A stretch of 64,000 nucleotides of DNA, taken from IMG/VR virus record IMGVR_UViG_3300029859_000151. One strand, 5' to 3'. The position numbers and the translations under genes are program-made. Source of the DNA: a virus. Taxonomy: Duplodnaviria > Heunggongvirae > Uroviricota > Caudoviricetes. Shown piece by piece: positions 3,500 to 58,033 of the stretch. Under the pieces are notes generated by a model. It was not told the DNA's origin. It saw only the letters and a list, made by a program, of their open reading frames with translations, and did no database searches. The number at the start of each line of letters is the position of its first letter. The first letter of the stretch is position 1.

Positions 3500-3904
3500 A
3501 TGCATTTAGACACAAATAATCATTCGGTGTTCATGTTACATTATCATCTTATCATGTGTGTAAAATATCGTAATAAAGTGATAAATGATGATATCTCTAA
3601 TCGTTTGAAGGAGATATTTATAAAGATGCTCCTACCTATAATATTACGTTAGAAGAATGGAATCACGATATAGACTATGTTCATGTTCTATTTAGAGGGC
3701 AACCAAATACTGAAATCAGTAAATTTATTAATGCTTATAAATCTGCAAGCAGTCGGTTTATCAAAAAAGAATATCCAAAGATTCGCAAATCTCTTTGGAA
3801 AGAGATGTTCTGGTCACAAAGTTTTGCCTACTGACCACAGGTGGAGTTACTACAGATATTATTAAACAATATATTCAATCACAAGGTAAAAAAGATGGCA
3901 AATA
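3500..3904 (+). pseudogene. tnpA: IS200-like Y1 (HUH) transposase TnpA, disrupted by at least two frameshifts
   Basis: translation MHLDTNNHSVFMLHYHLIMCVKYRNKVINDDISNRLKEIF in frame 1 continues as KDAPTYNITLEEWNHDIDYVHVLFRGQPN..SKFINAYKSASSRFIKKEYPKIRKSLWKEMFWSQSF in another frame and ..CLLTTGGVTTDIIKQYIQSQ in a third; total span about 135 codons, equal to full-length TnpA. Confidence 0.65.
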
Positions 3905-5034
3905 AAGCAATTAAATATAGAGTATACCCTACAACTGAACAAAGTATCATGTTTGCAAAAACCTTTGGCTGTTGCCGTAAGGTCTATAATCTTATGCTTT
4001 CTGATAAGATTGAAGGTTATAAAATGACTGGTAAATTTCCAATAGTCACACCTGCTAAATATAAAAATGAATATCCCTATCTTAGAGAAGTAGATAGTCT
4101 TGCTCTTGCCAACAAACAGATGGATTTGCAGGAAGCCTTTCGTAACTGTTTTAGCAGATCTCGTAAAAAGAATAATGGATTTCCTAAATATAAATCTGCA
4201 AAGCATAGCCGTAAAGCATATACTACAAACAATCAGAAAGGTACAATTTCTATTATAGATAACAAATATATCAAACTTCCTAAAATTGGTAAAGTGAAAG
4301 CTGTCATCCATCGTAACCCTGATAGCTATTGGGTTATTAAATCTGCTACTGTATCTCAGGAATCAGATGGAAAATATTATATTTCTATACTTTTTGAATT
4401 TGATAATGTTGTAAATACTTATATAGCCGATAAAGCGAATGCTATCGGATTAGATTATGCTTCTAATGGCTTATATGTGGACAGTAATGGCGATGTAGGC
4501 ACTAACCACAAATACTATCGTGAAAGCCATGATAAACTTGCCAAGGCACAACGGAGATTATCACGCATGCAAGGTTCTAAAAAGGATGAAGAAAAGTCTA
4601 ATAATTACATTAAACAGCTGCGTAAAGTAAACAAAATCCACAGACATATTGCTAATCAGCGTTTAGATAACTTACATAAAATATCTACTGAGATAGCCAA
4701 TCAGTACGATGTTGTTTGCGTGGAAAGTCTAAACATGAAAGCTATGTCCAATAAGGGATTTGGAAACGGTAAGGCTACTCTTGACAATGGATATGGCATG
4801 TTTCTGTCGATGCTTAAATATAAGCTGACTGATAGAAATAAGTATCTTGTAAAAGTAGATAAATGGTTTCCGTCATCACAAATATGTCATTGCTGCGGTG
4901 CATTACATCCCGAAATGAAGAATTTAGCAATCCGTACAATGAAATGTGATTGCGGTCTTACAATCAGTCGTGACCAGAACGCAGCTATCAATATATTACA
5001 GGAAGGATTACAGATTCTGACTGAAGCAGCATAG
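3895..5034 (+). CDS. tnpB: TnpB (RuvC-like RNA-guided nuclease family, OrfB_IS605) with C-terminal zinc finger
   Basis: MANKAIKYRVYPT N-terminus; RuvC-like blocks IGLDYASNG, VVCVESLNMK, RDQNAAINIL; CHCCG..CDCG zinc finger; start overlaps the tnpA end. Confidence 0.85.
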   Translation: MANKAIKYRVYPTTEQSIMFAKTFGCCRKVYNLMLSDKIEGYKMTGKFPIVTPAKYKNEYPYLREVDSLALANKQMDLQEAFRNCFSRSRKKNNGFPKYKSAKHSRKAYTTNNQKGTISIIDNKYIKLPKIGKVKAVIHRNPDSYWVIKSATVSQESDGKYYISILFEFDNVVNTYIADKANAIGLDYASNGLYVDSNGDVGTNHKYYRESHDKLAKAQRRLSRMQGSKKDEEKSNNYIKQLRKVNKIHRHIANQRLDNLHKISTEIANQYDVVCVESLNMKAMSNKGFGNGKATLDNGYGMFLSMLKYKLTDRNKYLVKVDKWFPSSQICHCCGALHPEMKNLAIRTMKCDCGLTISRDQNAAINILQEGLQILTEAA

Positions 5035-17103: not shown

Positions 17104-17128
17104 ACCCACGATGGGAAGGAGAATAATT

Positions 17129-17620
17129 ATGATTGAAGAAAACAAAAACTTTTGGGAAAATTGTGGACATACATATGAGGAGCATGTTGATGTCGATAAT
17201 CAGGATTTGAAAAACCGTGTTATGTTTGGGACATATGAAAGCGGAAGATTTGATGGACAAGGTAAATCAATTTGTTCGCGTTTTTCATCAGAAAAAATTG
17301 CTAAAATGGCTATCGAAAGAACACTTGAAATAAGATGCTCTGAAATTGAAGAGTGGATGAAATTGGGCTATCAGGAAGAAATTGTTGTAACAGTGAATTT
17401 TAGTAAAGCTATTGGAGTAGGATATGTGAAAGGCACGAACTTACGAAAAGATCCTTATTTGATGTATTCTATTTGCATGGTGTTACGTGCAGATGCTCAT
17501 TTCCGTTCATATTCTATAGTAACAGCTTACCCAATACCGAATAGAAATGTTGGAAAGCAAATTGCTAAAGACAAAAAAGACTTTTATGAAGAGAGAAGAG
17601 CCAGAAGAACTCAGAGATAG
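17129..17620 (+). CDS. hypothetical protein (163 aa)
   Basis: ATG after GGGAAGGAGAATAATT. Confidence 0.5.
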   Translation: MIEENKNFWENCGHTYEEHVDVDNQDLKNRVMFGTYESGRFDGQGKSICSRFSSEKIAKMAIERTLEIRCSEIEEWMKLGYQEEIVVTVNFSKAIGVGYVKGTNLRKDPYLMYSICMVLRADAHFRSYSIVTAYPIPNRNVGKQIAKDKKDFYEERRARRTQR

Positions 17621-32993: not shown

Positions 32994-33066
32994 GGACCAT
33001 TAGTTCAGCTGGTAGAACGCTCGGCTCATAACCGGGAAGTCGTAGGTTCGAGTCCTACATGCTCCA
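32994..33066 (+). tRNA. tRNA-Met (anticodon CAT; elongator or Ile2-lysidine type)
   Basis: manual cloverleaf: acceptor GGACCAT/ATGCTCC (one mismatch), D-arm GTTC-AGCTGGTA-GAAC, anticodon loop CTCATAA, T-arm GTAGG-TTCGAGT-CCTAC, discriminator A. Confidence 0.75.
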
Positions 33067-33105
33067 TTTATATAATAGTTAAAAATTTATTTTTAAATAA
33101 AAACT

Positions 33106-33129
33106 TCTGTACCACTGCTGTACCGAAAA
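33106..33129 (+). promoter_or_regulatory. upstream element, tandem half-duplication (CTGTACCACTGCTGTACCGAAAAG)
   Basis: two CTGTACC copies 12 nt apart, 15 nt 5' of the promoter core at 33145. Confidence 0.4.
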
Positions 33130-33144
33130 GTTTTTAAAAATATT

Positions 33145-33156
33145 TCTGACATATTA
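33145..33156 (+). promoter_or_regulatory. phage promoter motif copy (in front of tRNA-Glu)
   Basis: TATTTCTGACATATTATATATGAAATC. Confidence 0.5.
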
Positions 33157-33172
33157 TATATGAAATCAAAAA

Positions 33173-33246
33173 GGCGCCTTGATCTAATGGTTAGTGATAT
33201 CGCTCTTTCACAGCGAAAATGCAGGGTTCGAGTCCCGCAGGCGTCA
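33173..33246 (+). tRNA. tRNA-Glu (anticodon TTC)
   Basis: acceptor GGCGCCT/AGGCGTC, anticodon stem TCGCT/AGCGA with loop CTTTCAC, T-loop TTCGAGT; the T-stem needs a bulged A (GC[A]GGG/CCCGC). Confidence 0.65.
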
Positions 33247-33370
33247 TTCTCTTCTTAAAAGAAGAGACGTTATGTAATAAAAAGTCGTACTATGTAATGG
33301 CCTCCTTTCTGGGATAGACATATTGGCCGGATGTATCTGTCCTCATCACAACCTAAACATAGGCGGCTAC

Positions 33371-33442
33371 GGGATATTAGCTCAGCGGAAGAGCAATCGA
33401 CTTTTAATCGATAGGTCTCGGGTTCGAATCCCGGATGTCCCA
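33371..33442 (+). tRNA. tRNA-Lys (anticodon TTT)
   Basis: acceptor GGGATAT/ATGTCCC, D-arm GCTC-AGCGGAA-GAGC, anticodon stem ATCGA/TCGAT with loop CTTTTAA, T-arm TCGGG-TTCGAAT-CCCGG. Confidence 0.8.
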
Positions 33443-33680
33443 TGATAGGTCTTTTGCCTTTAAAGGTTTTTTCCTTTATCGCAAAAGTGGCAACTTGTTT
33501 TAGGTGTTTTGATTCATCTAAGCAAGAAAAAAATCAGAAAAAAAAGATGTTGCGAAAGCGCGCGCAAGTAACGGCATCAGTTCACATCATTAATCGCCGA
33601 CTGATTTGGAATACCTTTGTTGGGTGTGAACAAATAACTTTGAAAAATAAGTAATTTGGAAAATAAGCAAAAACATATAT

Positions 33681-33771
33681 GATGCAGTACCGAAATGGTT
33701 ATAACGGCAATCCCTGCTAAGGATTTGTGCTGAATTGAGTAAGCATGGAGGTTCGAATCCTCTCTGCATCG
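33681..33771 (+). tRNA. tRNA-Ser (anticodon GCT), long variable arm
   Basis: acceptor GATGCAG/CTGCATC (perfect), anticodon stem ATCC/GGAT with loop CTGCTAA, variable arm TGTGCTGAATTGAGTAAGCAT, T-arm GGAGG-TTCGAAT-CCTCT, discriminator G. Confidence 0.75.
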
Positions 33772-33790
33772 TTATAACAATTTAATATAT

Positions 33791-33873
33791 GCCATATGTC
33801 CGGGTGGTTGAGGGAGCGGTCTTGAAAATCGTTGGCCTATAAAGGCTTGCAGGTTCGAATCCTGTGTATGGCG
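33791..33873 (+). tRNA. tRNA-Ser (anticodon TGA), long variable arm
   Basis: acceptor GCCATAT/GTATGGC, anticodon loop CTTGAAA, variable hairpin GCCT-ATAA-AGGC, T-arm GCAGG-TTCGAAT-CCTGT; D-arm non-canonical. Confidence 0.6.
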
Positions 33874-33909
33874 TTAAAAGAAAAAATATAAATATATTTT
33901 CTCTTTTTA

Positions 33910-33981
33910 TAATAAAGTAATGGGCATTCGCCAAGCGGTAAGGCACTGGATTTTGATTCCAGCATCCGTAGGTTCGAATCC
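33910..33981 (+). tRNA. tRNA-Gln (anticodon TTG)
   Basis: U1:A72 acceptor TGGGCAT/ATGCCCA typical of bacterial tRNA-Gln; anticodon stem CTGGA/TCCAG with loop TTTTGAT; T-arm GTAGG-TTCGAAT-CCTAC. Confidence 0.8.
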
Positions 33982-33988
33982 TACATGC

Positions 33989-34061
33989 CCAGTTAATATT
34001 CTCCTATAGCTCAGTTGGTAGAGCACACGACTGTTAATCGTGTTGTCGTAGGTTCGAGTCC
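33989..34061 (+). tRNA. tRNA-Asn (anticodon GTT)
   Basis: acceptor TCTCCTA/TGGGAGA, D-arm GCTC-AGTTGGTA-GAGC, anticodon stem CACGA/TCGTG with loop CTGTTAA, T-arm GTAGG-TTCGAGT-CCTAC. Confidence 0.8.
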
Positions 34062-34158
34062 TACTGGGAGAGTTAGCAATGTGAACGAGAGCACGGGATA
34101 GTTCTTAAAGCTGCAAATTTACGGGTTCGTAAAGCGAAAAAGCGCATTGCTTAAATAT

Positions 34159-34230
34159 TGCGGAGTAGAGCAGTGGCAGCTCGCAGGGTTCATAACCCTG
34201 AGGTCGCAGGTTCAAATCCTGCCTCCGCCA
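34159..34230 (+). tRNA. tRNA-Met (anticodon CAT), initiator-type
   Basis: 1:72 mismatch (U1 x C72), A11:U24 in the D-stem and three consecutive G:C pairs (GGG/CCC) closing the anticodon stem are the bacterial initiator signatures; anticodon loop TTCATAA; T-arm GCAGG-TTCAAAT-CCTGC. Confidence 0.7.
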
Positions 34231-34248
34231 TTTCAATTAATATAATTT

Positions 34249-34321
34249 ACGCCCAAGGTGATGTGGTTCGTTGCAACTGGCTTATATCCAGCGATTTTGG
34301 GTTCGATTCCTAATGGGCGCA
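34249..34321 (+). tRNA. tRNA-like sequence, possibly tRNA-Ile (TAT) or a degenerate tRNA
   Basis: good acceptor (CGCCCA/TGGGCG, 6/7), T-arm TTGGG-TTCGATT-CCTAA, anticodon stem CTGG/CCAG with loop CTTATAT; the D-arm pairs only via G-U and is non-canonical. Confidence 0.3.
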
Positions 34322-49503: not shown

Positions 49504-50166
49504 ATGAAGATTATTAAAAGAAATGGAGAAGAAAAGCCATTTCAAGCTGAAAAAATTGCAAAAGCGATTAGCAAGGCAAATGAAAGTGTGATCGATTATG
49601 AACGATTGAGCGAATCTCAAATTGCCGAAATTGTCTCAAATGTGACAAAAGCCTGTGAGAACATGAGCCATAGCCCTAATGTGGAAGAAATTCAGGATAT
49701 GGTTGAAAATCAGATTATGCAGCAAGGGGCATTTTCTGTAGCAAGAAATTATATTACTTATCGTTATAAACGAGAAATCGTTCGGAAATCAAATACTACT
49801 GATCAACAGATTCTTAGTTTAATTGAGTGTGATAATGAGGAAATTAAACAGGAGAATTCTAATAAGAACCCAACAGTGGTCAGCGTGCAAAGAGATTATA
49901 TGGCCGGGGAAGTCAGTAAGGATCTAACAAAAAGATTTTTTTTACCACCAGATATTGTCGAAGCGCATGAAAATGGACTTATACATTTTCATGATGCTGA
50001 TTATTTCTGCCAGAGAATGAACAATTGTGGACTGGTTAATTTGGAGGATATGCTTCAGAACGGAACTGTTATTAGTGGAACAATGATTGAGAAACCTCAT
50101 AGTTTTTCGACAGCCTGCAATATCGCAACACAAGTAATTGCTCAAGTAGCGAGCAGTCAGTACGGT
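49504..50166 (+). CDS. nrdD: anaerobic ribonucleoside-triphosphate reductase NrdD, exon 1 (ATP-cone + N-terminal part)
   Basis: MKIIKRNGEEKPFQAEKIAKAISKA is an ATP-cone start typical of NrdD. The ORF runs to ..VASSQYG, then the frame hits a stop 8 codons later inside the intron. Predicted exon end at T50166. Confidence 0.75.
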
Positions 50167-51402
50167 TTAAAGAGATCTGCCGTACTTTAAAAACAATATT
50201 AACCATCAGAGATGGGGTTATGCCTTAAATGGCATGGCTAACGAGGTAGGTTGGAAAAGCTGATCTCGTGATCATTTTGATAATTAACGATTTTTAAAAA
50301 TAAAGAGGTGGAATGCCTATGGCAAAAACAACAAGTGCAACAAGTGCAACAAATGCAGAAAAATCTGAGCTTATGAAATCTGCGATTTTTCAATTATATA
50401 GTAAAGAGGGAAGATCAATTTGTTATATTAGTCGGTTATTGGAAATCAACAGGAAGACGCTTTCAGAAAAAATAGAAGAATGGGATTTTCCAAAACCAAA
50501 ACCGACAAAATATGTAAAACCGTCAACCCAAAAATTTATTAATAAAAATAGAGCTTTGATAAAATCTCGTTTGGATAATGATATTTCCATAACAAAAATT
50601 GCGGAGGAATTGCAAGTTGAGCGAAGTTTTCTTCAAAAAACAATTATTCCAAATGACGAAATTTTGTATAAGGCAAAATGTGATTATATAAAAAGAAAAC
50701 AATCAAATGCAGAAGAGCGCAGAAATGAAATATTGAAAAATTCAAGGCAGGAATATATTTTTAGTGATTTGCCCGGGGAGATTTGGAGACCTATTTTAGG
50801 GTACGAAGGATATATGGTATCCAACAAAGGACGAATTAAAAAATATGCAAAAAGATATAAGGCATATTATTTAATTGCCCAAACTCCAAACAAAAATAAT
50901 GGGCGCTTATACGTTTGTTTGTTTAAGGGGAATAAAAGAAAAAATATGCAAGTTGCAAGAATTGTCGCACATGCATTTGTGGATGGATTTGATGGCACAC
51001 ACAATACTGTAAATCACGAAGATGGGAATGTCCAAAACAATGAAGCCACAAATCTTACTTGGACAAGCCAATCAGAAAATAATAAACATTCGTATACAAA
51101 ACTAAATCGGCAAAAAGTGAATTTTAAGAAATATAAGTTTAAAAAAATTATCTATAAAGAAAAGTATGAGTTTAAAACGGTTGCTGCATTGGCGCGTTTT
51201 TTAGGAAAATCTGAAACACAGACTAGACGTTATTTAGATTATCCGGAAAAACATAATTTGCAATTATGTAATTAACAAAATGATTGTAACGACTACCGTA
51301 AGCTATCAGCGATGATAGTTGAAACATATTGGCGGATATAATAACAATATCTGCAAGAAATAGTCTAAGCTATGTGTAGAATACGAACTTACATAGTATT
51401 TG
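50167..51402 (+). other. group I intron (predicted) interrupting nrdD, carrying an HNH endonuclease ORF
   Basis: 5' exon ends in U and the intron ends in G (G51402). Joining 50166 to 51403 restores a continuous frame ..IAQVASSQYG|GQSISLAHLAPF.. Structured GC-richer segments lie at 50190-50310 and 51276-51400. Confidence 0.6.
50313..51275 (+). CDS. HNH homing endonuclease (intron-encoded), with NUMOD/AP2-like DNA-binding region
   Basis: IWRPILGYEGYMVSNKGRIKKY; HNH motif VNHEDGNVQNNEATNLTWTSQSENNKHS; N-terminal HTH-like segments. Confidence 0.75.
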   Translation: MPMAKTTSATSATNAEKSELMKSAIFQLYSKEGRSICYISRLLEINRKTLSEKIEEWDFPKPKPTKYVKPSTQKFINKNRALIKSRLDNDISITKIAEELQVERSFLQKTIIPNDEILYKAKCDYIKRKQSNAEERRNEILKNSRQEYIFSDLPGEIWRPILGYEGYMVSNKGRIKKYAKRYKAYYLIAQTPNKNNGRLYVCLFKGNKRKNMQVARIVAHAFVDGFDGTHNTVNHEDGNVQNNEATNLTWTSQSENNKHSYTKLNRQKVNFKKYKFKKIIYKEKYEFKTVAALARFLGKSETQTRRYLDYPEKHNLQLCN

Positions 51403-52944
51403 GGACAGAGCATATCTTTAGCACATCTTGCTCCTTTTGTACAGATAAGCCGAGAGAAGTTTCGTAAGCAGATACAAAAAGAAGCCATAGATACAAAGAT
51501 TGCTCTTGACAAAGAACAGCTTGAAAGAATTGTGGAATCTCGTGTAAGAGAAGAAATTAACAAAGGAGTTCAAATGATTCAGTATCAGATCATTACGCTT
51601 ATGACGACTAATGGCCAGGCTCCATTTGTTACAGTTTTTATGTATTTACACGAAGTTCCGGAAGGACAAACAAGAGATGATCTTGCGATGATCATTGAGG
51701 AGGTGCTTAAACAGAGAATAACAGGTGTTAAAAATGAGCAAGGAGTATATATTACTCCGGCGTTTCCAAAGTTAATTTATGTATTGGAAGAAGATAATAT
51801 TAAAAAAGATTCAAAGTATTGGTATTTAACAGAACTTGCTGCAAAATGTACAGCAAAAAGAATGGTCCCGGATTACATTTCTGAAAAAGTCATGAAGTCA
51901 GTTAAAGAAGGCGAAACTTTCCCTTCAATGGGGTGTAGAAGTTTTCTTACTATAGACCGTTTTTCGGAAACAAAAGGCAATATCTCTAAAGCAAAGAATT
52001 TTGAGGAGCATAAAGGACATGTATATTACTCAAGATTTAATCAGGGTGTGGTGACAATCAACCTGGTTGATGCAGCTTGTACTTCAGGTGGAGACGAGGA
52101 AAAATTTTGGAAAATTTTAGATGAACGTTTGGAATTGTGCCATCGTGCATTACGTATTCGTCATGAGCATTTGTTAGGAACAAAATCAGATGTAGCACCA
52201 ATTCTTTGGCAGCATGGAACATACGCCCGATTAGAGAAAGGGGAAACAATAGACCAACTTTTGGTTGGTGGTTTCTCAACAATATCATTGGGATATGCCG
52301 GATTATATGAATGTACTATGCGAATGAAAGGTGTGTCACATACTGATCCAAAGGGAACGCCATTTGCGATTGCTGTTATGCAGAAATTAAATGATGCATG
52401 CAATAAATGGAAGGCAGAAGAAAATATTGATTATTCTGTATATGGGACACCTTTGGAATCGACAACTTATAAGTTTGCAAAATGTCTTCAGAAAAGATGG
52501 GGAATTATTAAAGATGTAACGGACCATAATTATATTACAAATTCATATCATGTATGCGTAAGAGAACATATGGACGCTTTTACAAAATTGAAATTTGAAT
52601 CACAGTTTCAAAAACTATCCCCGGGCGGAGCAATCAGTTATGTAGAAGTTCCTAATATGCAGAACAATATTCCTGCAGTACTTTCTGTAATGCAATTTAT
52701 TTATGAAAATATCATGTATGCAGAGCTAAATACAAAGAGTGATTATTGCATGCAATGTGGATATGATGGAGAAATCCAGATTGTTCCAGATGAAGATGGA
52801 AAGCTTATATGGGAATGTCCAAAATGCAAAAACCGTGATCAAAGCAAAATGAGTGTGGCACGAAGAACTTGTGGTTACATTGGGACGCAGTTCTGGAATC
52901 AGGGCAGAACACAGGAGATCAAGGAACGCGTTCTGCATTTATAA
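51403..52944 (+). CDS. nrdD: NrdD, exon 2 (glycyl-radical C-terminal part)
   Basis: C-terminus CMQCGY..CPKCKNRD zinc ribbon followed by the glycyl-radical motif RRTCGYIGT; the track ORF begins at TTG 51400, but the reading frame is open across the 3' splice site. Confidence 0.75.
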   Translation, partial: GQSISLAHLAPFVQISREKFRKQIQKEAIDTKIALDKEQLERIVESRVREEINKGVQMIQYQIITLMTTNGQAPFVTVFMYLHEVPEGQTRDDLAMIIEEVLKQRITGVKNEQGVYITPAFPKLIYVLEEDNIKKDSKYWYLTELAAKCTAKRMVPDYISEKVMKSVKEGETFPSMGCRSFLTIDRFSETKGNISKAKNFEEHKGHVYYSRFNQGVVTINLVDAACTSGGDEEKFWKILDERLELCHRALRIRHEHLLGTKSDVAPILWQHGTYARLEKGETIDQLLVGGFSTISLGYAGLYECTMRMKGVSHTDPKGTPFAIAVMQKLNDACNKWKAEENIDYSVYGTPLESTTYKFAKCLQKRWGIIKDVTDHNYITNSYHVCVREHMDAFTKLKFESQFQKLSPGGAISYVEVPNMQNNIPAVLSVMQFIYENIMYAELNTKSDYCMQCGYDGEIQIVPDEDGKLIWECPKCKNRDQSKMSVARRTCGYIGTQFWNQGRTQEIKERVLHL

Positions 52945-53078: not shown

Positions 53079-54143
53079 ATGACAAAGAAGGATATTAATT
53101 ATATTAAAAAGCATTTAAAACTAGAAAATTGTACGGTTTCAAAAATTTGTGGCTGTTTAGTTAATACAGAAAGAGAAAAAGTCTGTGTTTTTAAAGAAAA
53201 CTTTTTAGCTCAATCAGATGATGATATGGAAAAATATTTGAAATTAGAGAAAAAGATTTTTTCAAATAAGCTTCGGGACAATTCGATTATTTCAACATTT
53301 TCGACTCAGGAAGAAACTTCAGGAGAGTCATATAAGTTATTAAGAAAATTAGCTAATGGAAGTCTTTCAGAAGAAGTATTGATGTCTTTTTATGATAAAG
53401 TTATTGAAACATATTCTATTGCATCAAATTATTTGATCTTATTGTTTTTTGATTCAATGGATTTGCCCGGAGATGAAAATTCTTTGGATGTTTATCAGTA
53501 TGTTACTTGTTTAATTTGCCCGATGAAATTATCTGCGGATACACTTGGTTATGACAGTAAAGATAATTTGATCGCAAAAATGCCAAGATCAAATATTGTT
53601 TCTGCACCAGAATGTGGCTTTGCTTTTCCTGTATTACATAATATGCAGACAGATTTGCACTCTATTATGCTGTATTCAAAAAAGGCAAAAGAGCCAAAAA
53701 CAGAAATATTAGTAGATCTAACAGGCTGTAAATATATAAGAACTGCAACGCAAAAGAAAGAATTGCTTTTAAATGGCATTGCAGCAGCATATGGAGAAAA
53801 TGGAACTGATTTTTTGGCAGAATATATGAAAGAAATTTCGCCAGAAGATAACGAAGAAATTTACAATGAGGTTTCTCTTGATACTATGAAAAAATCATTT
53901 GAAAATATTTCAAACGATCCAGAAGCTACAAATACATTTATTACTGGTCTTGAAAAAGCTTTGGGAAATGAAGAAATTTTGATGATGGATATTTTTATGG
54001 AGAATATGCTGGAGAGAGCAAATGTCCTAGAGCGAAGAAAACGTATGAGACTATTATTAACAGAGTGTATTAATAAAATTGAACAGAATGAAGGAAAAAC
54101 AGATTTAACAGAGGAGATCCGAAGCACATTTTTGGCAAGTTAG
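53079..54143 (+). CDS. hypothetical protein (354 aa); not an NrdG activase
   Basis: good RBS AAAGAAAGGAAAACCTGTTT-ATG; no CxxxCxxC radical-SAM motif. Confidence 0.55.
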   Translation: MTKKDINYIKKHLKLENCTVSKICGCLVNTEREKVCVFKENFLAQSDDDMEKYLKLEKKIFSNKLRDNSIISTFSTQEETSGESYKLLRKLANGSLSEEVLMSFYDKVIETYSIASNYLILLFFDSMDLPGDENSLDVYQYVTCLICPMKLSADTLGYDSKDNLIAKMPRSNIVSAPECGFAFPVLHNMQTDLHSIMLYSKKAKEPKTEILVDLTGCKYIRTATQKKELLLNGIAAAYGENGTDFLAEYMKEISPEDNEEIYNEVSLDTMKKSFENISNDPEATNTFITGLEKALGNEEILMMDIFMENMLERANVLERRKRMRLLLTECINKIEQNEGKTDLTEEIRSTFLAS

Positions 54144-54333: not shown

Positions 54334-56943
54334 ATGCAAAAAGAAATGGATAGTTTAAAAGGCATAATAGAGAAAGTCATATATACAGGAGATAATAATT
54401 ATGCAATTATTTCTGTAAAACTTCCGGGAATTGGAAAACCTGTTACAGCTTGTGGAAATATCGAAAGTCCCATTAAGAAAACAGAAATTAGTATGGAAGG
54501 AACATGGCATTTTAACGAGCAATATAAGGAAAAACAATTTATTGTTGAAAGGGCAGAGTGCAAAATTGATAAAAAAAATAGAGCTGCGATTCAGTTTTTA
54601 TCAAGCGGATTGATTAAGTATGTCGGGGAAGTGACAGCAAGAAGCATTGTTGAGGAATTTGGAACAAATTTTGATAAAATTATATCTAATCCATATTTAT
54701 TGATTAAAATTAAGGGATTAACAGAAGCGCGTCTTCCAGAAATTGCAAAATCAATAAAAGAACACAAGGGAATTTTTGATATTTATAATGCAGTAAATGG
54801 GGAAATCACAAAAAATCAGGCAGAACTGATTTATAAAAAATATGGAGATGATAGTGCAAGAAAAATTAGTGAAAATCCTTATGTTCTGATTTATGACATT
54901 AAGGGTTTTGGTTTTAAGAAAGCGGATGCATTGGCAAGAAATATTGGATTTGAATTAGAGTCATCTGAAAGATGCAAAGCAGGATTATTGCACTGCTTTA
55001 GAGAAGCTGCCGACGAAAAAGGGCATTGCTTTCTATATTATCAGGATGCTTTGCAAAGAGCTGGAAATTTGCTTATTACATCAGATGATGTAAAGGAAAT
55101 ATATTATAAGCGAATTTTAAAAACAAGCGTTCCGGATTTAATGAGTGGATTTTTAGAATTGCCATTGGGCGATTTAATAGTAAAACACAAAATAAAATTT
55201 AATAATTTGATTGATAATCTGGAAGAGGCTATTTTTGACGAAGAGGATATTACGCAATATTATGATCGTTTTAATTTTAGCGCAGATGAAATTGAATGTA
55301 TTGAAATGTTTTTACATTTAAAGGCAAAAATATGTGAAGAGATTAACCATATTTTGACGTTAGAGTCTTATAAAATTGACCAGTTGTCAATATCTGAGTC
55401 TTTGGAAAAAGCAAAACAAAATCTGGAAATGGAAAACCCATATCGTTTTTTTGCAGATAAAGATAAAAAAGGTAATTGGAGATATTTTGAAGCAAAAACA
55501 TATCTTTTGGAGTTACAAGTAAGCCATGCATTGGTAGCAATGGCTAAAAAAGAAAGTACCTTATCTTATACAGATAAAGAGTGTGATGACCTTATTAAAG
55601 ATTATGAGAACGATAATGAAATCGAATTGGGAGAGGAACAAAAAGAAGCAGTTAAAAAGACTTTGAAAAATCGGGTGTCTATTATTACTGGAGGACCAGG
55701 AAGAGGAAAGACAACGATTGAGGATATCATTATTAAAGGATGGAAAGCTAAAGGAGGAAAAACAATTTTATTGGCCCCAACAGGTCGAGCCGCGCAAAGG
55801 ATGACTCAGGCGACAGAAGAAGAAGCGAAAACGATTCAACGAAAATTATTAGCTTATGAAACTGGATGTGATGAAGAGAGTTATTTCCTTCCGACATTAG
55901 TCCTTGTCGATGAAATGTCTATGTGTACGCTGCAGCTATTAGCACGATTAATTAATTTTTCAAAAGCAGGCGACATTCATTTTACTTTTATTGGAGATGC
56001 CAATCAGTTACCGTGTATTGGATTGGGAGATGTTTTTAAAGATATGATTAAAAGTGGTTTGATCCCATGCACCAAGTTGTTGAAATGTTATCGAAACGCA
56101 GGAGCAATTAGCTATAATTCTGATATTATCAACAATGGCGGAATGATGAGGGATTTCAAGAAAGACAATACATTTAAATTAGTTACCATGGAATCTGTCG
56201 AAAGTGTTCAGGAAACAATAATTAATTTATATGGAAAAATGAAAGAACGATTTAAACCAGATGAAATTGGAATTATTGTTCCGTGTCGTAAATCCGGGAA
56301 AACGTGTGCAAATGAATTAAATCGTTTAATTCAAGAAAAATACAATTTATTTACCGGGAAAAAGAATGAGATCCATTATAAAGATAAGCTTTTCAGAGTT
56401 AATGATCGCATCATTCACACAAGGAATTGCTATAACATGCAATATGAAGATAGATATGGTATTGGATTAGGTGTTTTTAATGGAGAAACAGGAACTATTA
56501 CTAAAATTGATCCATATGCCAAAATAATTTATGTCCAGTTTGATGGAGATGATGAAAAACAAGTAATATATGATTTTGAGCATATGAAGTTTTTGGAATT
56601 AGCATATGCAATAACAGTACATAAAGCACAAGGGTCTGAATATAAGTGTGTTATTTCAGCATTTGTAAATGGTGACTATAATTTATTATGCCGGAACATG
56701 ATTTACACCGCAGAGACTAGAGCAAAGGAGCTGATGATTCTTTTAGGGTCGAATAAAGCTATTGCTATGGCAATTTCTAATGCTTATGTTGAAATGAGAA
56801 ATACAACTGTTTATGAAAGAATCAAAGAATTCTGGGATACAGATTCTGAAGAAAATGATGTTATAGACAGAAACGAATTGTATGAGAATACTGAAGATTT
56901 TGATGTATTGGATATTGTAACTGATAAGAAAGGAGCTGCTTAA
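54334..56943 (+). CDS. RecD-like SF1B DNA helicase (second copy, 869 aa)
   Basis: motif I ITGGPGRGKTTIE, Ia LLAPTGRAAQRM, II LVLVDEMSMC, III FIGDANQLPCIGLG, V/VI AITVHKAQGSEYKCVI .. YTAETRAKELM; N-terminal OB-like region paralogous to that of the 40456 helicase. Confidence 0.8.
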   Translation: MQKEMDSLKGIIEKVIYTGDNNYAIISVKLPGIGKPVTACGNIESPIKKTEISMEGTWHFNEQYKEKQFIVERAECKIDKKNRAAIQFLSSGLIKYVGEVTARSIVEEFGTNFDKIISNPYLLIKIKGLTEARLPEIAKSIKEHKGIFDIYNAVNGEITKNQAELIYKKYGDDSARKISENPYVLIYDIKGFGFKKADALARNIGFELESSERCKAGLLHCFREAADEKGHCFLYYQDALQRAGNLLITSDDVKEIYYKRILKTSVPDLMSGFLELPLGDLIVKHKIKFNNLIDNLEEAIFDEEDITQYYDRFNFSADEIECIEMFLHLKAKICEEINHILTLESYKIDQLSISESLEKAKQNLEMENPYRFFADKDKKGNWRYFEAKTYLLELQVSHALVAMAKKESTLSYTDKECDDLIKDYENDNEIELGEEQKEAVKKTLKNRVSIITGGPGRGKTTIEDIIIKGWKAKGGKTILLAPTGRAAQRMTQATEEEAKTIQRKLLAYETGCDEESYFLPTLVLVDEMSMCTLQLLARLINFSKAGDIHFTFIGDANQLPCIGLGDVFKDMIKSGLIPCTKLLKCYRNAGAISYNSDIINNGGMMRDFKKDNTFKLVTMESVESVQETIINLYGKMKERFKPDEIGIIVPCRKSGKTCANELNRLIQEKYNLFTGKKNEIHYKDKLFRVNDRIIHTRNCYNMQYEDRYGIGLGVFNGETGTITKIDPYAKIIYVQFDGDDEKQVIYDFEHMKFLELAYAITVHKAQGSEYKCVISAFVNGDYNLLCRNMIYTAETRAKELMILLGSNKAIAMAISNAYVEMRNTTVYERIKEFWDTDSEENDVIDRNELYENTEDFDVLDIVTDKKGAA

Positions 56944-57241: not shown

Positions 57242-58033
57242 ATGGAACAAAATAAAGTTATTTTATGTGGCATGGCTGCCACTGCTCCAAAAATCTTCAA
57301 AGAAGAAGAAACCGGAGAGTACAAATTAGGGGTACTTACATTAAATGTTGTAAGAAACAATCGAGCAACAGGAGATACAGACCGACAGTTAAGACAATAT
57401 ACAATATTTGTAAAAAGCGATAAACCGGAAATAATTGAAAAATTTGATAAAATCAACCAATTTGATCAGGTTTTTGTAAAAGGAGTTCTTGTTACTAAAG
57501 CAAAGGATAAAGTTTCTATTTGCCCAGAATGCCAGACGGAACAAATTCAGCAAGGAATGATCGTTTATATTTATCCAATTTATGTAGATATCTTGAATCA
57601 AAATTTAACACGAAAAGAAAGTGCTGATTTACTTTATGAAAGAAAAGAAATATCTAATGATATAGAAATTATGGGGCATTTATGCAATGATCCTATTAAA
57701 GTTGAAGCATTGAAAAAGACACCTATTGTTCAGTATCAATTAGGTGTTGGAAGAAAATATCGAATTGATGAAGAAAAAACAGATTTTCCATGGGTAAAAT
57801 CATATGGCAAAAATGCAAAAGATGATTTATTGCGCTTAAGAACTGGATCAGGAGTTTTTATTGAAGGGTTTCTGCAAACAAGAGCTGTTGAAAGAAAGTG
57901 TAGATGCTCCACTTGCGGAAGTATGTATACATGGAATGATTACGCAATGGAAATTGTACCATATGAGACAGAATATCTTAAAGATTATGTTACTGATGAA
58001 GAATTAAGTATCATGAAAAATTCGCTCAATTAA
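57242..58033 (+). CDS. OB-fold ssDNA-binding-like protein with zinc-ribbon motifs (tentative SSB)
   Basis: N-terminus NKVILCGMAATAPKI..TGEYKLGVLTLNVVRN..QFDQVFVKGVLV resembles the SSB OB-fold pattern; CPECQ and CRCSTCG pairs. Confidence 0.4.
   Translation: MEQNKVILCGMAATAPKIFKEEETGEYKLGVLTLNVVRNNRATGDTDRQLRQYTIFVKSDKPEIIEKFDKINQFDQVFVKGVLVTKAKDKVSICPECQTEQIQQGMIVYIYPIYVDILNQNLTRKESADLLYERKEISNDIEIMGHLCNDPIKVEALKKTPIVQYQLGVGRKYRIDEEKTDFPWVKSYGKNAKDDLLRLRTGSGVFIEGFLQTRAVERKCRCSTCGSMYTWNDYAMEIVPYETEYLKDYVTDEELSIMKNSLN

What the first reader, a model, noticed from the sequence alone, without database searches (positions are those of the whole stretch)
49504..52944. nrdD interrupted by a group I intron with an HNH homing endonuclease; precise splice junction predicted
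Exon 1 (ATP-cone, ..IAQVASSQYG) and exon 2 (GQSISLAHLAPF.. to glycyl-radical RRTCGYIGT) join in frame if the intron is 50167-51402. Under this model the 5' exon ends in U, the intron ends in G, and a QYGGQS motif plausible for NrdD is reconstituted. The intron carries a free-standing HNH endonuclease (50313..51275). Introns in phage RNR genes are a known phenomenon (established knowledge), but this one is worth recording because automated callers will report two truncated nrdD fragments. No nrdG activase follows, and the downstream 354-aa protein lacks a radical-SAM motif, so the activase must be elsewhere or host-supplied.
Basis: partly seen in the sequence, partly recalled or inferred. Interest (0 to 1): 0.55.

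Follow-up and report, generated by a model that had tools for sequence, protein, structure and literature searches.

The report
Self-splicing intron inside phage nrdD gene

Summary
Joining 49504-50166 to 51403-52944 gives a complete 734-aa NrdD (ATP-cone, full NRDD domain, glycyl-radical site). It aligns without a gap through the junction SSQYG|GQS to solved NrdD structures. Intron-less relatives (72-78% identical) show the empty site.

The 1236-nt insert (50167-51402) is a group I intron. P1 has a U·G pair at the 5' splice site and the last base is G. 23 homologous introns sit at the same NrdD codon boundary, in NrdDs 26-79% identical. They support P1, P3, P6, P8, P9 and three further hairpins by compensatory changes (91% of cells paired against 33-46% in slid controls).

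A model built from the 3' half finds all three T4 introns and nothing spurious. The ORF in the P6 loop is an intact I-HmuI-like HNH/NUMOD4 endonuclease.

Rfam's Intron_gpI does not detect this intron, nor ORF-less members of the class. The core has no P2 and carries two extra hairpins between P3 and P4.

No nrdG is in the window. The downstream gene is DUF4317.

Splicing itself is inferred. For the Jug-phage homologue, a published study reported no splicing evidence. Verdict: a real, ordinary kind of element; a new member of a poorly annotated family.

The parts
49504..50166 (+). nrdD exon 1 (221 codons: ATP-cone and N-terminal part of the NRDD domain; ends ..SSQYG)
   Evidence: homology to intron-less relatives stops at 50166
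50167..51402 (+). group I intron, 1236 nt (IA2-like core with the endonuclease ORF in the P6 loop)
50159..50186 (+). P1: exon AGUACGGU (50159-50166) pairs with internal guide GCCGUACU (50179-50186); U50166·G50179 wobble at the 5' splice site
   Evidence: read. In the alignment, U·G occurs in 22/23 homologues and three P1 pairs change on both sides, exon against guide sequence
50194..50199 (+). P3 5' strand CAAUAU (pairs with 51326-51331)
   Evidence: 6/6 pairs covary, 98.6% of cells paired; found de novo by RNAalifold
50203..50236 (+). two extra hairpins between P3 and P4: A (CCAUC/GAUGG, 50203-50215) and B (UAUGCC/GGCAUG, 50219-50236)
   Evidence: both covary. P3 ends 30-75 nt before GCUAACGAGG in 45/59 class members and is never adjacent to it
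50241..50269 (+). P4 (ACGAGG/UCUCGU) and P5 (GGU/GCU) with A-rich J4/5 and J5/4
   Evidence: P4 is invariant in 23 sequences; P5 covaries at 2 pairs
50271..50279 (+). P6 5' strand AUCAUUUUG (pairs with 51276-51284); the ORF lies in its loop
   Evidence: 9/9 pairs covary, 97.6% paired
50313..51275 (+). intron-encoded HNH/NUMOD4 homing endonuclease gene (I-HmuI-like; own Shine-Dalgarno GAGGUGG at 50305-50311; start 50313 or 50319)
   Evidence: Full-length homologues (46-64% identity) lie in 143 loci, most inside the same intron
51276..51284 (+). P6 3' strand CAAAAUGAU
51285..51295 (+). J6/7 plus P7 5' strand (UGUAAC-GACUA), identical to the T4 intron element AACGACUA
51303..51318 (+). P7.2 hairpin (CUAUCA/UGAUAG), preceded by GUAAG and followed by GAAAC as in T4 nrdD; P7.1 is reduced here but present in relatives
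51326..51331 (+). P3 3' strand AUAUUG, directly after GAAAC
51332..51354 (+). P8 hairpin (GCGGAUAU/AUAUCUGC)
   Evidence: 8/8 pairs covary, 93% paired
51355..51365 (+). J8/7 AAGAAA plus P7 3' strand UAGUC (guanosine-binding helix)
   Evidence: invariant in 23 sequences; matches T4 introns
51370..51402 (+). P9 hairpin (CUAUGU/ACAUAG), the tail UAUUU and the terminal G (51402)
   Evidence: P9 covaries at 6/6 pairs; the GGG column (terminal G plus first two exon bases) is nearly invariant
51403..52944 (+). nrdD exon 2 (513 codons plus stop; GQSISLAH.. through the CxxC..CxxC zinc site and glycyl-radical motif RRTCGYIG)

Best explanation
The window carries one anaerobic ribonucleotide reductase gene, nrdD, interrupted after codon 221 (..QYG|G..) by a mobile group I intron of 1236 nt. 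The gene is transcribed as one precursor. The intron RNA folds into a group I ribozyme core: P1, P3, two extra hairpins, P4-P5, P6, P7, P7.2, P8 and P9. A free guanosine bound in P7 attacks the phosphate after U50166, which is held in a U·G pair by the internal guide sequence. The freed exon 1 then attacks after the terminal G51402, joining GGU to GGA and restoring an mRNA for a 734-aa NrdD. The loop of P6 holds a separately translated gene for an I-HmuI-like HNH endonuclease. By analogy with its relatives, this enzyme cuts or nicks the intron-less QYGG-coding site of related phage genomes during co-infection, so that repair copies the intron in (homing). Shown here: exon colinearity, the empty site in relatives, the conserved covarying RNA structure, and the endonuclease family. 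Inferred: catalysis, splicing in vivo, and endonuclease specificity.
For: The spliced product is a complete NrdD, colinear with solved structures through the junction. Intron-less relatives define the insertion point to the base. Homologous introns lie at the same codon boundary in NrdDs of 26-79% identity, including cultured Lactococcus phage P1048. On 23 ORF-deleted introns, 91.2% of cells pair against 33-46% for slid controls. 50 of 68 pairs change on both sides. The covariation score is 0.508 against at most 0.108, and 0/500 shuffles reach it. RNAalifold recovers P1, P3, hairpin A, P4, P5, P6, P7.2 and P8 de novo. The exon and guide-sequence sides of P1 covary, and U·G is kept in 22/23. 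The elements AACGACUA, GAAAC-P3' and AAGAAAUAGUCU match T4 nrdD. A covariance model of the 3' half was searched over 117.6 kb. It hit only this intron, three other phage introns, and all three T4 introns (td E 0.01, nrdD 0.065, nrdB 0.11). The endonuclease is intact and belongs to a conserved family: I-HmuI E 2.4e-13, with full-length homologues in 143 loci. Close NrdD relatives occur with (L245, 77-79% over the two exon matches) and without (L006, 78%) the intron, as expected for a mobile element.
Against: Rfam RF00028 gives no hit even at E <= 10, although it finds the T4 nrdD intron at 105 bits. The order of helices departs from the canonical one: no P2, and two hairpins between P3 and P4. 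No transcript data exist for this window. [quoted passage not shown] P4 and P7 never vary in the alignment, so they are supported by identity with known introns only, not by covariation.
Confidence: 0.9

Rival explanations
1. Split gene without splicing. A free-standing HNH endonuclease gene has cut nrdD into two separately translated ORFs, whose products assemble into an active enzyme. This is the situation described for nrdA of Aeromonas phage Aeh1 (PMC3653736).
For: Gene callers see three ORFs. The exon 2 frame can open at TTG 51400. The Jug-phage homologue showed no splice reads. In L023 the second fragment has an in-frame ATG.
Against: This reading does not explain about 270 nt of non-coding flanks whose helices covary, including pairing between the last exon bases and an intron guide sequence. 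There is no Shine-Dalgarno sequence before 51400. The break falls inside the invariant SSQYGG motif.
Confidence: 0.05
2. Decayed intron. The element was a group I intron but no longer splices in this phage, so nrdD is a pseudogene or is rescued by the host enzyme.
For: P7.1 is reduced to two bases in the window, while many relatives have a full hairpin. No nrdG is present nearby.
Against: Every covarying helix is intact in the window sequence itself. The window scores 115 bits against the family model of the 3' half, though it was one of the 22 sequences that model was built from. Both exons and the endonuclease are free of stops or frameshifts. Several relatives share the reduced P7.1.
Confidence: 0.04
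3. Another kind of intervening element: an intein or a group II intron.
For: Related nrdD genes carry many kinds of insertions (PMC12880540).
Against: The exon 1 frame stops 8 codons into the insert, and the ORF is in another frame with its own ribosome-binding site. No intein, reverse-transcriptase or maturase domain is found. The boundaries are U|UUAAAG and UUUG|, not GUGYG..AY.
Confidence: 0.01

Closest known systems
Phage T4 nrdD (sunY) group I intron with I-TevII
   Same: The host gene is the same (class III ribonucleotide reductase large subunit), and it is also a phage. The 3' core has the same order and near-identical elements (AACGACUA, P7.1/P7.2, GAAAC-P3', P8, AAGAxAUAGUCU, P9). It is a mobile intron with a homing endonuclease.
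   Different: The T4 intron sits about 60 codons downstream (..QAYE|YEVNTLF, our residue ~281-283). Its endonuclease is GIY-YIG and lies 3' of the core, not in P6. Its 5' half is canonical (P2, then P3-UAAA-P4), and Rfam finds it at 105 bits.
T4 td and nrdB introns; SPO1 DNA-polymerase intron with I-HmuI
   Same: In td and nrdB the ORF lies within the core (in P6a, from my own knowledge of the literature; the records show only that the I-TevI and I-TevIII ORFs lie inside the introns). The nrdB/RB3 I-TevIII and SPO1 I-HmuI enzymes are HNH enzymes. The window's enzyme aligns to the I-HmuI catalytic domain. The 3'-half model hits td and nrdB.
   Different: The host genes and insertion sites differ. 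The window's enzyme has about 150 extra N-terminal residues with helix-turn-helix matches. The core has the two extra hairpins.
Unannotated homologues: Lactococcus phage P1048 (949 group) and Jug phages
   Same: The same intron family, with a homologous endonuclease (48-50% identity), lies at the same NrdD codon boundary.
   Different: The host NrdDs are only 26% (P1048) and about 45-60% (Jug) identical to the window's. In the P1048 record, exon 1 and the endonuclease are labelled 'hypothetical protein'. In Jug phages the region is published as a gene split without splicing evidence. Phage 949's nrdD is described as split by an intron in PMC3653736.

Membership tests
Group I intron | The last exon base is U, paired with G in a P1 helix formed with an internal guide sequence | tested here: met
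   U50166·G50179 closes an 8-bp P1. U·G occurs in 22/23 homologues, and three P1 pairs covary between exon and intron.
Group I intron | The intron ends in G (omega-G) | tested here: met
   G51402. The GGG column is nearly invariant. It is the only in-frame junction that ends in G.
Group I intron | A conserved core of P3-P8 and P4-P6 domains, with a P3/P7 pseudoknot | tested here: met
   P3, P6 and P8 covary at every pair. P4 and P7 are invariant. The topology is P3 5' .. P4-P6 .. P7 5' .. P3 3' .. P8 .. P7 3'.
Group I intron | A guanosine-binding P7 and J8/7 resembling those of proven introns | tested here: met
   AACGACUA and AAGAAAUAGUCU are as in T4 nrdD. Model R1 hits td, nrdD and nrdB of T4 and nothing else in T4 DNA (E 0.01-0.11, each marginal on its own).
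Group I intron | A match to Rfam RF00028 Intron_gpI at the gathering score | tested here: not met
   No hit at gathering or at E <= 10. ORF-less class members L288 and L172 are also missed. The T4 positive control scores 105 bits.
Group I intron | Canonical helix order P1-P2-P3-J3/4-P4 | tested here: not met
   There is no P2 (7 nt between P1 and P3). Two covarying hairpins lie between P3 and GCUAA-P4, and this is class-wide.
Group I intron | Guanosine-dependent self-splicing, or spliced mRNA in vivo | not testable with these tools
   No RNA data exist for this window. The Jug-phage homologue is reported without splice reads (PMC12880540).
Subgroup IA2 (T4-like phage introns) | Extra helices P7.1/P7.2 between P7 and P3' | tested here: inconclusive
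   The window has GUAAG plus one hairpin (P7.2) and only 2 nt in place of P7.1. Many family members have both, e.g. GUCGAAAGAC-GUA-GGCUGC..GCAGUC-GAAAC. Subtype covariance models were not available.
HNH homing endonuclease (I-HmuI-like) | HNH/HNN catalytic motif with a NUMOD4 module | tested here: met
   1U3E E 2.4e-13, with ..VNHEDGNVQNNEATNLTW.. aligned to ..VDHKDGNKDNNLSTNLRW... NUMOD4 E 8e-13. phrog_59 E 2.4e-33. Pfam HNH_3 itself is only weak (E 0.038, below the cut-off).
HNH homing endonuclease (I-HmuI-like) | Site-specific cleavage of the intron-less allele | not testable with these tools
   Only indirect evidence: the same site is occupied in highly divergent NrdDs, and close relatives occur with and without the intron.
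Class III ribonucleotide reductase NrdD | Full NRDD domain, C-terminal glycyl-radical motif and a four-Cys zinc site | tested here: met
   NRDD 1-562/562; Gly_radical; RRTCGYIG; CMQC..CPKC.
Class III ribonucleotide reductase NrdD | A partner radical-SAM activase NrdG encoded nearby | tested here: not met
   tblastn with PMBT24 NrdG finds nrdG in about 72 related loci, immediately downstream of nrdD where positions were compared. It finds nothing in the window (best E 1.0). No CxxxCxxC ORF of NrdG type. No radical-SAM Pfam or PHROG hit in 33 further window ORFs. The rest of the genome was not available.

The most novel reading that the evidence does not exclude
This intron may represent a structurally distinct, so far undescribed subclass of IA2-like phage group I introns. 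Its marks are two covarying hairpins inserted between P3 and J3/4-P4, often no P2, the P4 signature GCUAACGAGG..AUCUCGUG, and A-rich AACACAAA-type loops on P8 and P9. The subclass is invisible to Rfam's Intron_gpI, so it is systematically left unannotated. Examples include cultured Lactococcus phage P1048 and the abundant Jug phages of the human gut, where its copy in nrdD is published as an unexplained gene split.
Probability: 0.3. Interest if true: 0.55.

Novelty: new member of a known kind. Interest (0 to 1): 0.4.

Why it matters
For annotation, the three called ORFs are one functional nrdD plus an intron-borne endonuclease. The same mis-annotation exists in a GenBank phage record (P1048).

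For the field, the comparative data gathered here give base-resolved, covariation-backed evidence on one nrdD split in Jug phages. That split had no splicing evidence, and it is a homologous group I intron. The data also show that a common class of phage introns escapes the standard Rfam model.

The QYG|G site of NrdD emerges as a recurrent target. This family occupies it in NrdDs only 26% identical, and a different ORF-less intron sits 5 nt upstream in other Jug phages. This fits the rule that homing elements settle in the most conserved coding DNA. None of this changes what is known about how such elements work.

Tried and rejected
- Rfam at gathering and at E <= 10 on the window, on L002, and on ORF-less relatives plus L041: no Intron_gpI hit. 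I first blamed the 1-kb ORF in P6, but ORF-less class members are missed too, so the cause is the divergent 5' half. The mir-7371 (E 0.0066) and rox2 hits are chance matches inside coding sequence.
- The search for related loci with the endonuclease protein in viral contigs: nothing. Relatives were reached through DNA motifs instead.
- A first motif that was too strict returned only Jug-phage copies.
- blastn of the 5' core against cultured phages: no match.
- megablast of 24 kb of the window against phages: no match.
- Exact look-up of the endonuclease: not on record. The source genome could therefore not be identified, and the rest of the genome could not be searched for nrdG.
- My first manual attempt put P3 next to P4 (GGCUA with UAGUU). 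It was rejected when the long-range helix CAAUAU/AUAUUG proved to covary in all homologues.
- Shifting the junction by one base (..GG|..U|GGGA) also restores QYGG. It was rejected because the intron would then end in U and the U·G pair would be lost.
- Literature searches for a described 'P3.1/P3.2' or an insertion between P3 and P4 found nothing usable. Landthaler 2002 is not held.
- The genome-contig scan returned almost only MAG contigs (two named isolate records among 27) and gave no host assignment.
Full report
**1. The observation**

The + strand holds three ORFs at 49504-50190, 50313-51275 and 51400-52944. Joining 49504-50166 to 51403-52944 is in frame and gives 734 aa.

This product matches Pfam NRDD over the entire model (1-562/562, E 1.7e-188), an N-terminal ATP-cone and the glycyl-radical domain. 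It aligns end to end with solved NrdD structures. The junction ..VASSQYG|GQS.. lies on ..VASSQYGG.. of 9D3X and ..VASHQYGG.. of T4 NrdD 1H78, with no gap.

Four intron-less relatives from human-gut phage contigs and IMG/VR (L001, L003, L004, L006; 72-78% aa identity) have uninterrupted genes. At DNA level they read ..CAGTATGGn|GGACAGAG... The window's homology stops at GGT (50166) and resumes at GGACAGAGC (51403).

A one-base shift would also restore QYGG. It would make the insert end in U and would lose the U·G pair, so it is rejected.

**2. What the insert is**

Reading one search gives the following features:
- The last eight exon bases AGUACGGU (50159-50166) pair with GCCGUACU (50179-50186), ending in a U·G wobble at the splice site.
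- AUCAUUUUG (50271-50279) pairs with CAAAAUGAU (51276-51284), enclosing the whole ORF.
- The 3' part carries UGUAACGACUA .. GAAAC .. AAGAAAUAGUCU and ends in G (51402).

Rfam's Intron_gpI nevertheless gives no hit, at gathering score or at E <= 10. As a control, the same search finds the T4 nrdD intron at 105 bits.

**3. Homologues and covariation**

A tblastn map of NrdD over IMG/VR loci showed many interrupted genes. The 355-401 kb contigs of the L023 type carry a homologous intron with a homologous ORF at the same codon boundary.

Motif scans of viral, metagenome and genome collections brought more than 300 loci. Of 59 distinct introns with the P4 signature GCUAACGAGG..AUCUCGUG, 38 have about 0.9-1.0 kb between P4 and P7.

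I removed the ORF from 23 non-redundant introns lying at this NrdD site and aligned them. Their host NrdDs are 26-79% identical to the window's. I then counted pairs for the structure read from the window:

| Measure | Proposed structure | Controls |
|---|---|---|
| Cells forming standard pairs | 91.2% | 32.5-45.7% with the 3' partner slid by 1-3 columns |
| Pairs changed on both sides | 50 of 68 | 24-36 in slid versions |
| Covariation score | 0.508 | at most 0.108 |
| Shuffles reaching the observed values | 0 of 500 | n/a |

Per helix:

| Helix | Cells paired | Pairs that covary |
|---|---|---|
| P3 | 98.6% | 6/6 |
| P6 | 97.6% | 9/9 |
| P8 | 93% | 8/8 |
| P9 | 83% | 6/6 |
| P7.2 | 83% | 6/6 |

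In P1 the exon side and the guide side change together: A-U, G-C and C-G at one pair, A-U and U-A at another, C-G and U-A at a third. The U·G is kept in 22 of 23.

P4 and P7 never vary, so they say nothing by covariation. RNAalifold, run blind on the same alignment, recovers P1, the long-range P3, hairpin A, P4, P5, P6, P7.2 and P8.

**4. Link to proven group I introns**

The 3' half has the order and joiner sequences of the T4 nrdD intron: AACGACUA, P7.1/P7.2, GAAAC followed directly by P3', P8, AAGAxAUAGUCU, then P9.

I built a covariance model from 22 3' halves and searched 117.6 kb: the window, two T4 regions and four phage loci. It returned seven hits and no others:
- the window intron (115 bits);
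- three other phage introns (L288, L041, L172);
- all three T4 introns at their known places and strands: td E 0.01, nrdD E 0.065, nrdB E 0.11.

Each T4 score is marginal alone. Three of three with no false hit is persuasive.

**5. How the core departs from the textbook**

There is no P2: seven bases separate P1 from P3. The 5' strand of P3 is not followed by J3/4-P4, unlike T4 nrdD, which reads UCUGCC-UAAA-ACGGG. It is followed instead by two covarying hairpins (50203-50215 and 50219-50236), then GCUAA, then P4.

In 45 of 59 distinct introns with this P4 signature, a perfect 6-bp complement to P3' ends 30-75 nt before GCUAACGAGG. It is never adjacent. ORF-less members from other genes (L288, L172) share the arrangement and are also missed by RF00028.

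The Rfam failure is therefore a property of the class, not of the ORF insertion alone. I could not establish whether this arrangement has been described. Subtype models were not available to me.

**6. The ORF**

The 320-aa protein matches NUMOD4 (E 8e-13), weak helix-turn-helix models at both ends, PHROG HNH families (E 2.4e-33) and the catalytic domain of I-HmuI (1U3E, E 2.4e-13). The motif ..NHEDGN..NN..NL.W.. is conserved.

It is in a different frame from exon 1 and has its own GAGGUGG. By comparison with relatives, the second ATG (50319) may be the true start.

Full-length homologues of 46-64% identity occur in 143 fetched loci; in those I examined they lie inside the same intron. The nearest is 64% (L245), whose NrdD is 77-79% identical over the two exon matches.

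In cultured phages the best match is Lactococcus phage P1048 (49.5%). There the record labels exon 1 and the endonuclease 'hypothetical protein', followed by NrdD and NrdG.

**7. Mechanism**

The best-supported reading is a mobile, self-splicing group I intron. Guanosine attacks after U50166, and exon ligation follows after G51402. The P6-loop endonuclease spreads the element to intron-less nrdD alleles. Supporting mobility:
- close NrdD relatives exist with (L245) and without (L006) the intron;
- the same site is occupied in NrdDs as distant as 26% identity.

Catalysis and homing are inferences.

**8. Counter-evidence**

The L023-type contigs match the Jug phages of PMC12880540 in three ways:
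- genome size;
- nrdD split into four pieces;
- fragments of 229 and 90 aa here against the paper's 230 and 91.

[quoted passage not shown] This region is the homologue of the window's intron.

This is absence of evidence from short-read mapping in three samples. It is still the only transcript-level information on this family, and it keeps the split-gene rival alive at a low level. That rival cannot explain why about 270 nt of non-coding flanks, including the exon-intron pairing, covary.

**9. nrdG**

With PMBT24 NrdG as query, tblastn finds nrdG in 72 related loci, down to about 30% identity. Where I compared positions, it lies directly after nrdD. In the window the best hit is E 1.0.

No NrdG-type CxxxCxxC ORF exists. 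PHROG and Pfam scans of 33 further window ORFs show no radical-SAM protein. The gene after nrdD is DUF4317.

The closest NrdD relatives (L001, L006) also lack an adjacent nrdG. Whether the activase is elsewhere in the genome or host-supplied cannot be decided from 64 kb.

**10. Comparison and verdict**

Group I introns with homing endonucleases in phage ribonucleotide reductase genes are textbook (T4 nrdD, T4 nrdB, Twort nrdE). nrdD is the most frequently split RNR gene in phages (PMC3653736).

This intron differs from T4's in three ways:
- insertion site, about 60 codons upstream;
- endonuclease family and position;
- the 5' core architecture.

It is a new member of a widespread, poorly annotated family, not a new kind of element. 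Interest is moderate (0.4): solid and useful for annotation, with a modest structural twist. It also gives a directly testable answer to an open point in a recent paper.

Noticed in passing
window 53079-54143 (+): The gene directly after nrdD is a DUF4317 protein (Pfam E 4e-57). In the related phage loci whose positions I compared, nrdG follows nrdD directly. No DUF4317 homologue was found in any fetched locus.
   Followed up: partly
window 32994-34321 (+): A cluster of 8 tRNA genes (Rfam tRNA, 31-71 bits). Together with all-plus-strand coding, this is consistent with a large virulent phage genome.
   Followed up: no
window 3841-5034 (+): A 397-aa ORF with HTH_OrfB_IS605, OrfB_IS605 and Cas12f1-like TNB domains: a TnpB/IS605-family element inside the phage genome.
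   Followed up: no
window 17111-17620 (+): A 169-aa ORF matching the bacterial CdiA-CT RNase A-like toxin domain (PF18431, E 1.2e-14).
   Followed up: no
L041/L042 3822-4011 (Jug-type contigs): A different, ORF-less insert of about 190 nt, with AACGACUA..AUAGUCU, sits 5 nt upstream of the window's site (..CAAU|..CUAG|ACGGAGGA..). Two unrelated introns therefore target the same QYGG-coding stretch.
   Followed up: partly
loci L002, L013, L017-L045: nrdD of related gut phages is interrupted at many further positions, around residues 164, 175, 293, 397-399, 404/434, 604, 630 and 712 of the window protein. Up to three or four inserts occur per gene.
   Followed up: no
alignment A2/A3, loops of P8 and P9 (window 51340-51346 and 51376-51390): Both loops carry a recurring A-rich motif (AACACAAA / AAUACxAA) across the family. 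This suggests conserved tertiary contacts; no partner was identified.
   Followed up: no
L366 (Lactococcus phage P1048, MN552145.1 54248-58971): In the GenBank record, nrdD exon 1 and the intron endonuclease are annotated as 'hypothetical protein' and no intron is annotated. The 'NrdD' CDS of 919 aa is long enough to hold a further insertion.
   Followed up: partly
L288, L172 (ORF-less introns in other genes): These are complete small introns of the same class (P3, two hairpins, GCUAACGAGG P4). Rfam RF00028 does not detect them even at E <= 0.1.
   Followed up: partly
window 54334-56943 (+): An 869-aa RecD/exonuclease V-like helicase (phrog_4412, E 5e-128), followed by an SSB-like protein (57242-58033). 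nrdD therefore lies in a replication and nucleotide-metabolism module.
   Followed up: no
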